DNA of 64,000 nucleotides. Origin: Escherichia coli. Lineage in GTDB: Bacteria; Pseudomonadota; Gammaproteobacteria; Enterobacterales; Enterobacteriaceae. Below, piece after piece: positions 49,852 to 51,979 of this stretch. Where the stretch lies: the NCBI RefSeq assembly GCF_003790525.1, contig NZ_CP033635.1; one strand, given 5' to 3'. Every line of letters begins with the position of its first letter. Position 1 is the stretch's first letter. A program made the position numbers and the translations under genes. The notes under the pieces are model-generated. The model did no database searches and was not told where the DNA came from. It saw only the letters and a program-made list of their open reading frames with translations.

Positions 49852-49892
49852 TGACTCTGGTACGGATGGTCGGGTATCGGCCATCCGTTATG

Positions 49893-50552
49893 TCATGCGG
49901 TCATCCAGTTTTTTAGAATATTCGCCACCACGGGAGCGAAAGGTGCCAGATAACCGTCGACGGGGGTGAGTAATTCGTCGATAACCGCTTGCAGCAGGTC
50001 GTCATCCTCAAGCCCCTCTGAAGGGTCAATGCCATTAGCCCACAGAAGGCTGTCGGAAAGCTGCTTACGTTTTTCAATCAATGCCCGATTATTACGTTCA
50101 CTATCGCCAAGGTTGAGTACCTTAATCGCATCGATAGCTCTCGGCGTCGTCCCTTCAATTCGACCACTGATCTTGAAGATAAACTCGGTTTCACATTCCG
50201 GCATAAGCGGCGTTAACAGCAATGGCTGGTTCTTATGCGAGTCGTCACACTGGCCTTTTGTTTTGCAGCTTGCAACGATATTCGTGAATTCCAGACTGCG
50301 AGCAGGAGCTAAATCCCTGGCTTCGACATGTTCATTAACGGTATCGCGGTTTGTACCTGTCACGCGATCGCAGCAATAAGCACAGAGATAAAATTGCTCC
50401 TGAGCGCACTGCTGGCTGAGATCGCCAACGATATCCCATTTTTTTTGCGCATAAAGTTCCTGAAACCACTGATTGGCATTTTTATCCCGTGGTTTTGCTC
50501 TCACCCACTGTTGCAAACTGGCCGGCGGTTGCCCTTTAGTTATTTCGCGCAT
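49893..50552 (-). CDS. HNH-family nuclease, Septu PtuB-like
   Basis: 219 aa with CAYCCDRV...NEHVEARDL, a His-Me finger/HNH-like Cys/His cluster. Overlaps the upstream ATPase gene by 17 nt. Confidence 0.6.
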   Translation of the reverse strand: MREITKGQPPASLQQWVRAKPRDKNANQWFQELYAQKKWDIVGDLSQQCAQEQFYLCAYCCDRVTGTNRDTVNEHVEARDLAPARSLEFTNIVASCKTKGQCDDSHKNQPLLLTPLMPECETEFIFKISGRIEGTTPRAIDAIKVLNLGDSERNNRALIEKRKQLSDSLLWANGIDPSEGLEDDDLLQAVIDELLTPVDGYLAPFAPVVANILKNWMTA

Positions 50553-51894
50553 GTTTAATTTCCTGTTTGCGCAGAAGCATTCTGGCTTTCACCAGTTCAA
50601 GATGGTTTTCAGGAAGTTCCAGGCTTAGCGTATTCAGAAGAGCGTTAGCGTTGATAAAGTCGTTTTTCTGAATCAGATCCAAAAGATCGTTAAGTTTTTC
50701 TGCCACTGTCGCATTGCGAATATCCGTATCCATCACATTCAAAAGCACAGTATTCGCATCTTGCCCATACAGAGACGGGAGCTGCGTTAATTCGCCATTA
50801 TCCAGAGAATAAACCAGCACATCTTTGTAATCACTGATCACTAAAGGAGAGTGGGTTGTTAAGACAAACTGGCAATGTGGGAATGTTGTCGTCAGACGCT
50901 GGATGATTGTACGCTGCCATGTTGGATGCAGGTGCATGTCCACTTCATCAATTAATACAATTCCCTCGCCGTTTAGCGGGTTTTCTAACATCGGGTTCAT
51001 CATTGCCAGGCGGCGAGCAATATCGCCGACTAACGCCATCAGTGATTTTTCACCCTGCGATAATTGCAGCACATTCAGTGTCTGGCCATTTTTATCAATC
51101 GACATATGCAGGCGAGGTTTACGCCTGACGCGTAAGTTGCTGAACCCTGGCATAAAGCGACTAATGGCCGTTCTGACGGCGGTCAACTGGCGATCCCGGG
51201 ACGAGGCCATGATTGCCGTTAATGCATTTAAGACGGTGTTATCGAGATCTATCCTGGTACTGAGCTTATCCAGAACGTCTTGGGGTAAGCCCGATTCATT
51301 TTCTGCATCTTCGCGATTGCGAAACCACTCAAAGAAACGGCGGAAATCAATACCCTGATTCAGGGCGTTATCGTAGCCATCCAGTTGCAAAAAATTATGA
51401 CGTTCTTTTATTTTCAACGGCACATCCAGCACGACACGTTCTACGGGATAGAAGGCGATAAGCGGGAAGGATGCCCCGCTATTCTGGGTGTATTGATCTC
51501 GATAAAACGCAGCCAATTGGCTGGCCTCTTGCAGGCTGGAGGCGGTGGTCGATTTTTTCCCACTGGCCGTTCTGGCAAGCAACCAACGGTAGGGCGTAGC
51601 GGCCTCCGTCGCTGGATGCGTATTCAGTACCTGAAGTTCAATTGTCGCCGAACTCCTACCGTTCAGAATAGCGTCTTCAGGAATAGGGCTACCGTTACCT
51701 TTTTCAGTACGAACTCGGGCAACGAACCAACTCAGGCTGGTTGCCAACGATTTTAATATTGATGTTTTACCTGCACCATTATTACCAATAAAAACGGTCA
51801 CATTGCTCTTGAACTCCTCCACTGGAGCCAGATGAACTTCAAGTTCTTCAAACCGCCCCAGATTAGTGAGCTTAAGCGTGCGGATATTCATCAT
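50536..51894 (-). CDS. ABC-type (AAA_15/AAA_21) ATPase, Septu PtuA-like
   Basis: 452 aa. Walker A GNNGAGKTS, ABC signature LSQGEKSLMALV, Walker B IVLIDEVDMHLHP, H-loop TTHSPLV. Confidence 0.75.
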   Translation of the reverse strand: MMNIRTLKLTNLGRFEELEVHLAPVEEFKSNVTVFIGNNGAGKTSILKSLATSLSWFVARVRTEKGNGSPIPEDAILNGRSSATIELQVLNTHPATEAATPYRWLLARTASGKKSTTASSLQEASQLAAFYRDQYTQNSGASFPLIAFYPVERVVLDVPLKIKERHNFLQLDGYDNALNQGIDFRRFFEWFRNREDAENESGLPQDVLDKLSTRIDLDNTVLNALTAIMASSRDRQLTAVRTAISRFMPGFSNLRVRRKPRLHMSIDKNGQTLNVLQLSQGEKSLMALVGDIARRLAMMNPMLENPLNGEGIVLIDEVDMHLHPTWQRTIIQRLTTTFPHCQFVLTTHSPLVISDYKDVLVYSLDNGELTQLPSLYGQDANTVLLNVMDTDIRNATVAEKLNDLLDLIQKNDFINANALLNTLSLELPENHLELVKARMLLRKQEIKHARNN

Positions 51895-51979
51895 TGAGTG
51901 CCCTGCGTTGAGTTCTGTTTGGATAATCTTACACTTAACCGTCGACGTCTGTCAGTGAAAGCGTATGCCCGTCATGATG

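What the first reader, a model, noticed from the sequence alone, without database searches (positions are those of the whole stretch)
49862..51979. Septu-like two-gene defence islet (ABC ATPase + HNH nuclease) inserted between yfcO and smrB
In K-12, yfcO and smrB are adjacent convergent genes. Here a 2-kb insert encodes a 452-aa AAA_15/21-type ATPase (Walker A/B, ABC signature, H-loop) followed by a 219-aa HNH-like nuclease whose start overlaps the ATPase by 17 nt. That architecture defines Septu (PtuA/PtuB). A shared hairpin at 49862-49888 (ACGGATGG...CCATCCGT) sits at the convergent junction with yfcO. The result is a compact defence islet in a core-genome convergent terminator region.
Basis: partly seen in the sequence, partly recalled or inferred. 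Interest (0 to 1): 0.5.

Follow-up and report, generated by a model that had tools for sequence, protein, structure and literature searches.

The report
Known Septu anti-phage gene pair

Summary
ORFs of 452 aa (50536-51894, -) and 219 aa (49893-50552, -) overlap by 17 nt and fill a 2,128-bp stretch that replaces the 70-nt yfcO-smrB spacer of K-12.

PADLOC profiles match both proteins end to end (PtuA1 E=1.8e-168, PtuB1 E=5e-95). All ATPase and HNH motifs are present. No reverse transcriptase or retron RNA is nearby.

This exact locus has been cloned and tested. 'Septu EcB88' from E. coli JBBDAGI-19-0041 (Nat Commun 2026;17:3468) differs from the window by 1 residue in PtuB and 4 of the 399 printed residues in PtuA. 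Its cloned fragment maps onto window 51792-52190 (395/399 nt). The published system blocks Demerecviridae, T4 and T6, and needs PtuA K43/D316 and PtuB H75/N91, all present here. On infection it cleaves the tRNA-Tyr variable loop.

Additions from this work:
- 183 of 5,426 complete E. coli genomes carry the cassette, always at this chromosomal site.
- About 475 more, including UTI89 and Nissle 1917, keep only a 234-bp ptuB remnant.
- The hairpin goes with the yfcO allele, not with the cassette.
- 27 of 67 relatives from other species sit inside type I restriction-modification operons.

Verdict: supported, already known, low interest.

The parts
50536..51894 (-). ptuA: 452-aa ABC-type ATPase. It has Walker A with K43, signature LSQGE at 278, Walker B with D316, and H-loop TTHS at 346.
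   Evidence: ORF. PADLOC PtuA1 E=1.8e-168 over the full length. Pfam AAA_21, AAA_23 and AAA_15. Best PDB match is retron Ec83 PtuA at 5e-63; stand-alone Septu PtuA 8ee4 scores 3.5e-32. Motif positions. Four differences in the 399 residues printed for PtuA of Septu EcB88.
49893..50552 (-). ptuB: 219-aa HNH (His-Me finger) nuclease with C57xxC60, N73-E74-H75, N91, C96 and C102.
   Evidence: ORF. PADLOC PtuB1 E=5e-95 over the full length. NCBIfam PtuB and TIGR02646 match below their cut-offs. Invariant residues in 33 relatives. The clade profile hits only PtuB chains in the PDB, E=1.8e-11 to 1.3e-3. One difference (V198I) from PtuB of Septu EcB88, WP_016243072.1.
50536..50552 (-). 17-nt overlap of the ptuA 3' end with the ptuB 5' end. 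An AGGA Shine-Dalgarno sequence lies 8 nt upstream of the ptuB ATG. Translational coupling is inferred.
   Evidence: In most related loci from other species the ptuB match starts inside or within a few bases of the end of the ptuA match (tblastn HSP ends overlap by 4-13 nt).
51895..51979 (-). 85-nt spacer between the smrB stop and the ptuA start. It holds a sigma-70-like candidate promoter (CTGACA, 18 nt, TAAGAT at 51955..51926) and no terminator-like structure.
   Evidence: Promoter scan (only 2 sites in the 3 kb against 4.6 expected, so weak evidence). The fold has z = +0.78. The published clone carried only 300 bp upstream and was active from its native promoter, so a promoter lies within 51895-52190.
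49862..49888 (.). Stem-loop ACGGATGGTCG/CGGCCATCCGT after the yfcO stop. It is linked to the yfcO allele, lies mostly outside the shared cassette, and has no U-tract.
   Evidence: Fold of -22.1 kcal/mol, z = -3.3. The junction alignment shows other cassette-bearing strains with a different hairpin.
49884..50117 (-). 3' part of ptuB. This is the only part of the cassette retained in about 475 other E. coli genomes (UTI89, Nissle 1917, ChlosBP-23-1).
   Evidence: In those strains a 48-nt unrelated junction sequence follows it; that sequence was found in 304 genomes.
49012..49851 (+). Left flank: yfcO-family fimbrial adhesin gene, a divergent allele.
   Evidence: RefSeq annotation of the identical stretch in strain 165. 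About 74% identity to K-12 at its 3' end.
51980..52531 (-). Right flank: smrB, co-directional with ptuA and ptuB.

Best explanation
Window 49893-51894 (-) encodes a stand-alone type I Septu system, ptuA-ptuB. It is an allele of the characterised 'Septu EcB88'.

Proposed mechanism:
1. The pair is expressed from a promoter in or just upstream of the 85-nt spacer after smrB, possibly also by read-through from smrB. ptuB is translationally coupled to ptuA.
2. PtuA, an ABC-type ATPase, forms the oligomeric scaffold that holds and controls the PtuB HNH nuclease.
3. Infection by T5-like (Demerecviridae) or T-even phages activates the complex through a trigger that is still unknown.
4. [quoted passage not shown] Translation stalls and the infected cell fails to produce phage (abortive-infection-like).
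5. Phages escape by supplying more or resistant tRNA-Tyr.

Shown here: gene anatomy, family membership, catalytic residues, near-identity and same locus as the tested system, and absence of retron parts.
Shown in the literature for the near-identical allele: defence spectrum, requirement for K43/D316/H75/N91, and tRNA-Tyr cleavage in vivo.
Inferred: that this allele is equally active, the promoter position, the translational coupling and the oligomer.
For: Anatomy: two intact overlapping ORFs.

Membership: full-length top PADLOC hits to PtuA1 and PtuB1. PDB relatives are all PtuA/PtuB proteins, followed distantly by AriA and OLD. Walker A K43, Walker B D316, HNH H75 and N91 are present.

Identity with the tested system: the supplement of PMC13096335 prints a PtuB that differs at 1 of 219 residues and a PtuA that differs at 4 of 399 printed residues. 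The first 399 nt of its cloned fragment equal window 51792-52190 at 395/399, so it is the same chromosomal locus downstream of smrB.

Published function of that system:
- 10- to 100-fold defence against Bas26-34, plus defence against T4 and T6.
- K43A, D316A, H75A and N91A each abolish defence.
- Northern blot and tRF-seq show infection-dependent cleavage of tRNA-Tyr at C48/A49.
- The growth phenotype is abortive-infection-like.

Stand-alone status: Rfam finds no retron RNA. There is only 85 nt upstream of ptuA and 41 nt downstream of ptuB. PtuA lacks the roughly 65-residue N-terminal extension of retron PtuA (the role of that extension is described).

Conservation: the ptuA-ptuB pair with overlapping or abutting reading frames recurs in about 60 species.
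Against: - The window allele itself has not been tested. It carries 4-5 PtuA substitutions relative to other alleles (T220A, I228L, Y356C, N366D versus the printed EcB88 sequence), two of them just after the H-loop.
- Between the window and strain 1517k, ptuA has 5 non-synonymous and 2 synonymous differences. The numbers are too small to judge selection.
- tRNA-Tyr cleavage by EcB88 was shown in vivo only. Purified retron-Ec78 PtuAB did not cut tRNA-Tyr in vitro but nicked supercoiled plasmid, so whether the HNH cuts the tRNA directly is unsettled.
- NCBIfam PtuA and PtuB equivalogs (built on retron Ec78) are matched below their cut-offs: 352 against 500 bits and 93 against 150 bits.
- The printed PtuA sequence differs at 3 positions from the CDS that RefSeq labels with the accession cited in the paper. 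The exact allele of EcB88 is therefore known only to about 99%.
Confidence: 0.87

Rival explanations
1. It is a Septu system, but the lethal act is DNA nicking or cleavage by PtuB, released when ATP falls. This is the model proposed for the stand-alone Septu of E. coli ATCC 25922. tRNA-Tyr loss would then be secondary.
For: As summarised in PMC12819146, stand-alone Septu PtuAB nicks DNA and is inhibited by ATP. Purified Ec78 PtuAB nicked supercoiled plasmid but did not cut tRNA-Tyr in vitro. PtuB's active site resembles the Cas9 HNH domain.
Against: For the near-identical EcB88 allele, tRF-seq mapped a discrete infection-dependent cut at C48/A49 of tRNA-Tyr. Over-expressing tRNA-Tyr restored T6 growth, and T6 escapers amplified their tRNA-Tyr gene. 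The window's PtuA is closer to retron PtuA (Ec83, 5e-63) than to ATCC 25922 PtuA (8ee4, 3.5e-32), and retron-Eco7 PtuAB is also linked to tRNA-Tyr cleavage (abstracts).
Confidence: 0.15
2. It is an orphaned effector module of a type I-A retron (such as Ec78 or Ec83) that has lost its reverse transcriptase and ncRNA. It would be either unregulated or inactive.
For: The closest solved relatives of PtuA are retron Ec83 and Ec78 PtuA. PADLOC retron I-A effector profiles also match strongly: ATPase_I-A at 3.1e-114 and HNH_I-A at 1.9e-22. NCBIfam's best hits are the retron Ec78 PtuA and PtuB models.
Against: There is no room for a retron: 85 nt upstream and 41 nt downstream, and Rfam finds no retron RNA in the 64 kb. 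PtuA starts where retron PtuA residue ~65 aligns, so the N-terminal extension that contacts the RT-ncRNA is absent. Stand-alone Septu profiles score higher than the retron ones, and the NCBIfam retron equivalog cut-offs are not reached. No conserved reverse transcriptase neighbour appeared among 67 related loci; the only recurrent neighbours are type I R-M genes. The same two-gene fragment is active on its own.
Confidence: 0.03
3. In this strain the pair is a decaying relic on the way to the deletion seen in other lineages, and it no longer defends.
For: About 475 genomes keep only a 234-bp ptuB fragment. Some carriers have an internal deletion of about 198 bp across the ptuA/ptuB junction, for example strain E57 with a 404-aa PtuA and a 207-aa PtuB. 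In ptuA, 5 of the 7 codons that differ from strain 1517k are non-synonymous.
Against: Both ORFs are intact and full length, with every catalytic and zinc-binding residue. The nucleotide sequence is 100% identical in at least two other isolates (strains 165 and HS4) and 99.5% identical to the other full copies listed. The substitutions lie outside the motifs.
Confidence: 0.07

Closest known systems
Septu EcB88 (PtuAB of E. coli JBBDAGI-19-0041; Nat Commun 2026;17:3468, PMC13096335)
   Same: Same chromosomal locus downstream of smrB (395/399 nt over the part of the cloned fragment that is printed). Same lengths, 452 and 219 aa. PtuB differs at 1 residue and PtuA at 4 of 399 printed residues. K43, D316, H75 and N91 are all conserved.
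   Different: A few substitutions: PtuA T220A, I228L, Y356C and N366D; PtuB V198I. One base differs in the spacer, 3 nt downstream of the candidate -10 box (51923). The window allele itself is untested.
Stand-alone Septu of E. coli ATCC 25922 (PDB 8EE4, 8EE7; Li et al., NSMB 2024)
   Same: Two-gene ABC ATPase plus HNH architecture without a retron. Both block T5.
   Different: A distant paralogue: phmmer E=3.5e-32 for PtuA, and PtuB is detectable only with a profile, at 3.9e-8. It is reported to lack ATPase activity, to be inhibited by ATP, to form a hexamer and to nick DNA. Its signature motif has Leu at the position where the window has LSQGE.
Type I-A retron effectors PtuAB (Retron-Eco7/Ec78 and Ec83; PDB 9E8Z, 9KJX, 9VH1 and others)
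   Same: Closest solved homologues of PtuA (5e-63). tRNA-Tyr variable-loop cleavage is the defence outcome. PtuB has the same CxxC, EH and N motifs.
   Different: There is no reverse transcriptase, ncRNA or msDNA here. PtuA lacks the N-terminal extension of about 65 residues and is about 90-100 residues shorter overall. Regulation must therefore differ.
PrrC anticodon nuclease embedded in the type Ic R-M system EcoprrI (from established knowledge, not tested here)
   Same: An ABC-ATPase-coupled tRNA nuclease. In 27 of 67 related loci the ptuAB pair occupies the slot between hsdS and hsdR. From memory, this is also the slot of prrC.
   Different: PrrC is a single polypeptide with a different nuclease domain and targets the tRNA-Lys anticodon. 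The E. coli cassette in this window has no hsd neighbours.

Membership tests
Septu (stand-alone PtuA/PtuB, PADLOC type I) | PtuA: ABC/SMC-like ATPase with Walker A, signature motif, Walker B and H-loop | tested here: met
   PADLOC PtuA1 E=1.8e-168 over the full length. Pfam AAA_21, AAA_23, AAA_15 and SMC_N above their cut-offs. Motifs at residues 37-44, 278-282, 312-317 and 346-349.
Septu (stand-alone PtuA/PtuB, PADLOC type I) | PtuB: HNH / His-Me finger nuclease with catalytic His and Asn | tested here: met
   PADLOC PtuB1 E=5e-95. H75 and N91 are invariant in 33 relatives, as are C57, C60, C96 and C102. The clade profile hits only PtuB chains in the PDB, and H75 aligns with the His that depositors mutated in 9o4a. 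No Pfam HNH model matches. No fold prediction was run.
Septu (stand-alone PtuA/PtuB, PADLOC type I) | The two genes are adjacent, co-oriented, and ordered ptuA then ptuB | tested here: met
   17-nt overlap, same strand. The same order, with ptuB starting inside or within a few bases of the end of ptuA, recurs in about 60 related loci.
Septu (stand-alone PtuA/PtuB, PADLOC type I) | No associated reverse transcriptase or ncRNA | tested here: met
   Only 85 and 41 nt flank the pair. Rfam finds no retron family in the window. No conserved reverse transcriptase among the neighbours of relatives.
Septu (stand-alone PtuA/PtuB, PADLOC type I) | Confers phage resistance that depends on both the ATPase and the HNH residues | not testable with these tools
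   Published for the ~99% identical allele at the same locus: K43A, D316A, H75A and N91A each abolish defence. Not measured for the window allele.
Septu (stand-alone PtuA/PtuB, PADLOC type I) | PtuA oligomer that binds PtuB through the PtuA C-terminal extension and the PtuB C-terminal domain | not tested
   No complex prediction was run. The C-terminal regions are conserved among relatives, for example L202, P207 and V208 of PtuB.
Type I-A retron (Ec78/Ec83-like) | Adjacent reverse transcriptase gene and msr-msd ncRNA | tested here: not met
Type I-A retron (Ec78/Ec83-like) | PtuA with an N-terminal extension and msDNA-binding insertions; NCBIfam equivalog score reached | tested here: not met
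   Query residues 4-448 align to residues 67-540 of retron PtuA chains. NF041760 scores 352 against a cut-off of 500, and NF041761 scores 93 against 150.
OLD / Gabija GajA / PARIS AriA (ABC ATPase with a TOPRIM partner or domain) | TOPRIM nuclease domain or partner; best profile match to those families | tested here: not met
   No TOPRIM hit in either protein. All of the top 25 PADLOC hits are PtuA models except one, which is the retron I-A ATPase model. AriA scores only 7.6e-8 and OLD 1.9e-4 in the PDB search.
Defence genes embedded in type I R-M operons (PrrC-like arrangement) | Location between hsdS and hsdR | tested here: not met
   The window's neighbours are yfcO and smrB. The arrangement is met in 27 of 67 related loci from other species.

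The most novel reading that the evidence does not exclude
The EcB88-type Septu clade may have originated as a module embedded in type I restriction-modification operons (hsdM-hsdS-ptuA-ptuB-hsdR-ygjP), in the slot PrrC occupies in EcoprrI. In that native setting the R-M complex would hold the tRNA-Tyr nuclease latent and release it when a phage disables restriction. The E. coli copy downstream of smrB would then be an escaped, self-sufficient derivative with a different, still unknown trigger.

A weaker add-on: because no terminator separates smrB from ptuA, expression of the tRNA nuclease may be coupled to smrB, whose product cuts mRNA in collided ribosomes.
Probability: 0.2. Interest if true: 0.45.

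Novelty: already known. Interest (0 to 1): 0.15.

Why it matters
For genome annotation, RefSeq labels these genes only 'AAA family ATPase' and 'hypothetical protein' or 'HNH endonuclease family protein'. They can now be named ptuA and ptuB, with an experimentally supported function.

For phage work, strains carrying this allele (about 3% of complete E. coli genomes) are expected to resist T5-like phages and some T-even phages unless the phage supplies tRNA-Tyr.

The remnant in UTI89/Nissle-type strains and the R-M-embedded relatives give a small evolutionary footnote. None of this changes what is known about Septu.

Tried and rejected
- Single-sequence phmmer of PtuB against the PDB gave nothing below E=0.01, and only marginal PtuB hits at E up to 10. 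A profile built from 33 relatives solved this.
- Is the hairpin part of the cassette? Rejected by the junction alignment.
- Is the remnant-bearing site a plain deletion? Not quite. 48 nt of unrelated sequence sit between the ptuB fragment and smrB. That sequence occurs only in the 304 remnant genomes found and in no larger context, so its origin is unexplained.
- Is yfcO-smrB a general defence hotspot with varied cargo? The sampled variants (70, 115, 170 and 319 nt) hold no other genes, and no paper links smrB or yfcO to defence hotspots. The survey was not exhaustive.
- Is the cassette carried on plasmids or phages? No near-identical copy. There are only relatives at about 67-70% identity on six PLSDB records, and a 180-nt match in one Vibrio phage.
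- I assumed the window equals strain 165 throughout. This is wrong: the window has an extra ~12.7-kb element at argW.
- Li et al. 2024 (PMC12318543) is not held in the library. Its findings are cited only as relayed by PMC12819146 and PMC13096335.
- Structure prediction, fold search and the large protein-database searches were not run. Published mutagenesis on a near-identical protein and the profile hits already answer the questions they would address.
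Full report
1. OBSERVATION

The region holds two intact ORFs on the minus strand:
- 50536..51894, 452 aa
- 49893..50552, 219 aa

They share 17 nt (50536-50552). yfcO ends at 49851 on the plus strand. smrB (51980..52531) is on the minus strand. So yfcO and smrB converge, and the pair lies downstream of smrB and runs in the same direction.

In a K-12 derivative the two stop codons are 70 nt apart. In the window they are 2,128 nt apart. G+C in the stretch is 0.44-0.50, against 0.51-0.59 in most of the flanking genes.

The hairpin at 49862-49888 is real: 11 pairs, -22.1 kcal/mol, z = -3.3. 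All stated features are therefore confirmed.

2. WHAT THE GENES ARE

PADLOC profiles match both proteins end to end:
- PtuA1 PDLC00271, E=1.8e-168, residues 2-450 on profile positions 1-420 of 421
- PtuB1 PDLC00344, E=5e-95, residues 1-218 on 1-212 of 213

The retron I-A effector profiles rank lower (3.1e-114 and 1.9e-22). Pfam sees AAA_21, AAA_23, AAA_15 and SMC_N in the large protein and nothing in the small one. NCBIfam's retron-Ec78 PtuA and PtuB equivalogs are the best hits but fall below their cut-offs.

In the PDB, PtuA's relatives are retron Ec83 and Ec78 PtuA (5e-63 to about 1e-46). Next comes the stand-alone Septu PtuA 8EE4 (3.5e-32), followed distantly by AriA and OLD.

PtuA carries these motifs:
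- Walker A GNNGAGKT, with K43
- signature LSQGE at 278
- Walker B IVLIDE, with D316
- H-loop TTHS at 346

PtuB alone finds nothing significant in the PDB. An alignment of 33 relatives shows invariant C57, C60, N73, E74, H75, N91, C96 and C102. The profile built from that alignment hits nine distinct PDB sequences, all of them PtuB or TIGR02646 proteins, with E=1.8e-11 to 1.3e-3. H75 falls on the histidine that depositors mutated in 9O4A.

Both were tested, and neither occurred.

3. STAND-ALONE, NOT A RETRON

Only 85 nt precede ptuA and 41 nt follow ptuB. Rfam finds no retron RNA anywhere in the window.

The window's PtuA aligns from its residue 4 to residue ~67 of retron PtuA chains. It therefore lacks the N-terminal extension that, according to PMC12819146, contacts the RT-ncRNA.

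4. THE SYSTEM IS ALREADY CHARACTERISED

A literature search led to Nat Commun 2026;17:3468 (PMC13096335). That paper studies 'Septu EcB88' from the clinical E. coli strain JBBDAGI-19-0041.

The supplement prints a 219-aa PtuB (WP_016243072.1) that differs from the window's at one residue, V198I. It also prints the first 399 residues of a 452-aa PtuA that differ at four: T220A, I228L, Y356C and N366D.

The first 399 nt printed for the cloned 2,598-bp fragment match window 51792-52190 at 395 of 399 positions. The fragment begins inside smrB, so it comes from the same chromosomal locus.

The paper reports:
- The fragment, expressed from its native promoter in DH10B, gives 10- to 100-fold protection against Bas26-34 (Demerecviridae). 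It also protects against T4 and, more weakly, T6, but not T2.
- PtuA K43A or D316A, and PtuB H75A or N91A, abolish defence.
- The infection phenotype is abortive-infection-like.
- Northern blots and tRNA-fragment sequencing show infection-dependent cleavage of tRNA-Tyr at C48/A49 in the variable loop.
- T6 escapes by SegB-driven amplification of its own tRNA-Tyr gene.
- The trigger was not found.

All four mutated residues are present at the same positions in the window.

One caveat. The printed PtuA differs at three positions from the CDS that RefSeq labels with the accession the paper cites. The identity figure is therefore good only to about 99%.

5. MECHANISM AND ITS OPEN POINT

The best-supported reading is an ABC-ATPase scaffold (PtuA) controlling an HNH nuclease (PtuB). 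On infection this depletes tRNA-Tyr and stops translation.

Direct cleavage by purified protein has not been shown for this system. For retron Ec78, purified PtuAB did not cut tRNA-Tyr in vitro but nicked supercoiled plasmid. The ATCC 25922 Septu is described as an ATP-inhibited DNA nickase. DNA nicking is therefore kept as a rival for the effector step.

6. EXPRESSION

The 85-nt spacer has one sigma-70-like match, CTGACA-18-TAAGAT at 51955..51926. This is weak evidence, because fewer sites were found in the region than expected by chance. The spacer has no terminator-like fold (z = +0.78).

The published clone carried only 300 bp upstream, so a functional promoter must lie within 51895-52190. 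Read-through from smrB is possible but untested.

An AGGA sequence sits 8 nt before the ptuB ATG, inside ptuA.

7. DISTRIBUTION AND HISTORY IN E. COLI

Of 5,426 complete genomes, 183 hold at least 80% of the cassette. All copies are chromosomal and single, and in every carrier inspected (strains 165, 1517k and E57) the cassette lies between yfcO and smrB. The listed full copies are 99.2-100% identical.

A few carriers have an internal deletion of about 198 bp across the ptuA/ptuB junction, for example strain E57.

About 475 further genomes, among them UTI89, Nissle 1917 and ChlosBP-23-1, keep only window 49884-50117, which is the 3' part of ptuB. It is 95-99% identical and is followed by 48 nt of unrelated sequence and then smrB. 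That 48-nt junction occurs in 304 genomes and nowhere else.

Other versions of the spacer:
- K-12-type strains (1,117 genomes) have an unrelated 70-nt spacer with its own hairpin.
- Further lineages have 115-nt or 170-nt versions, the latter REP-like, without genes.

Cassette-bearing strains come with at least two yfcO alleles. Each allele has its own hairpin directly after the stop codon, and the sequence common to all carriers begins at about 49884.

No near-identical copy exists on plasmids or phages. No mobility gene flanks the pair.

8. RELATIVES ELSEWHERE

Among representatives of 185,579 species, the nearest PtuA is only 72% identical (an Iodobacter MAG). Others include Allopseudospirillum, Nitrosomonas, Aeromonas and Enterobacter sp. 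RIT637, at 67-71%. This fits horizontal acquisition from a distant proteobacterium.

The ptuA-ptuB pair, with ptuB starting inside or within a few bases of the end of ptuA, is conserved in about 60 of these loci.

In 27 of 67 loci with at least 43% PtuA identity (all but one at 49% or more), the pair has type I R-M genes beside it, in most of them as a full operon hsdM-hsdS-ptuA-ptuB-hsdR-ygjP. Embedding of defence genes in type I R-M, BREX and Hma loci is a described phenomenon. From memory, this is also the position of prrC in EcoprrI. The E. coli copy has no hsd neighbours. This is the only lead pointing beyond the published picture, and it is modest.

9. VERDICT

The system is a member of a known family. 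More than that, it is an allele of a specific, experimentally characterised system at the same locus. Novelty: already known. Interest: low. The additions here are the locus history (full, deleted and remnant states), the ownership of the hairpin, and the R-M-embedded relatives.

Noticed in passing
window 19967-32634: An element of about 12.7 kb that is absent from the otherwise colinear E. coli strain 165. It is integrated at tRNA-Arg(CCT) (argW, 32636-32710, -) and flanked by an imperfect ~21-nt repeat, ATGGTGTCCC(C)TGCAG(A/G)AATC. It encodes an integrase (31195-32499, -), a Toprim primase-like 897-aa protein (25619-28312, -), a second integrase-like protein (24612-25652, -), a P2-family major-capsid-like 470-aa protein (20820-22232, -) and a MazF/PemK toxin (20432-20776, +). 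Rfam finds C4 antisense RNA (29507-29594, -) and isrK (29620-29701, -). It looks like a phage satellite. None of the six ORFs scanned matched a PADLOC model, apart from a weak Toprim match in the primase-like protein.
   Followed up: partly
window 49852-49892 and 51895-51979; loci L003, L004, L087, L088: The yfcO-smrB spacer is a mosaic across E. coli. At least five unrelated versions exist (70, 115, 170, 319 and 2,128 nt), each yfcO allele has its own hairpin, and one version has REP-like sequences. The whole yfc fimbrial operon is also highly divergent between lineages, at about 74% identity to K-12 at the yfcO 3' end.
   Followed up: partly
L004:1735-1782 (UTI89) and L002 equivalent: 48 nt of sequence (GCGCCAGTATCCAAGGCTAAATGGCCCGACTCATCCACCTTTTAATAT in L002; UTI89 has A at the first base) lie between the ptuB remnant and smrB. 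They match neither the cassette nor the K-12 spacer. They occur only in the 304 remnant-bearing genomes found, and their origin is unexplained.
   Followed up: partly
loci L007-L073 (e.g. L008:3320-12078, L012): In 27 of 67 species, relatives of this PtuAB at 43-73% identity sit beside type I restriction-modification genes, most of them inside a full hsdM-hsdS-ptuA-ptuB-hsdR operon followed by a YgjP-like metallopeptidase gene.
   Followed up: partly
window 51895-52531: No terminator-like structure separates smrB from ptuA. The gene for SmrB, the collided-ribosome endonuclease, may therefore be co-transcribed with a tRNA-Tyr nuclease system whose action should stall ribosomes. This is probably coincidental and was not tested.
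   Followed up: no
L006:1510-3313 (E. coli strain E57) and H41: Some cassette carriers have a deletion of about 198 bp spanning the ptuA 3' end and the ptuB 5' end. It is annotated as a 404-aa ATPase and a 207-aa protein, and is probably an inactivated variant.
   Followed up: no
PMC13096335, Supplementary Data (ptuA row): The PtuA sequence printed for Septu EcB88 differs at three positions (19, 108 and 228) from the CDS that RefSeq labels WP_000981116.1 in strain 1517k, which is the accession the paper cites.
   Followed up: no
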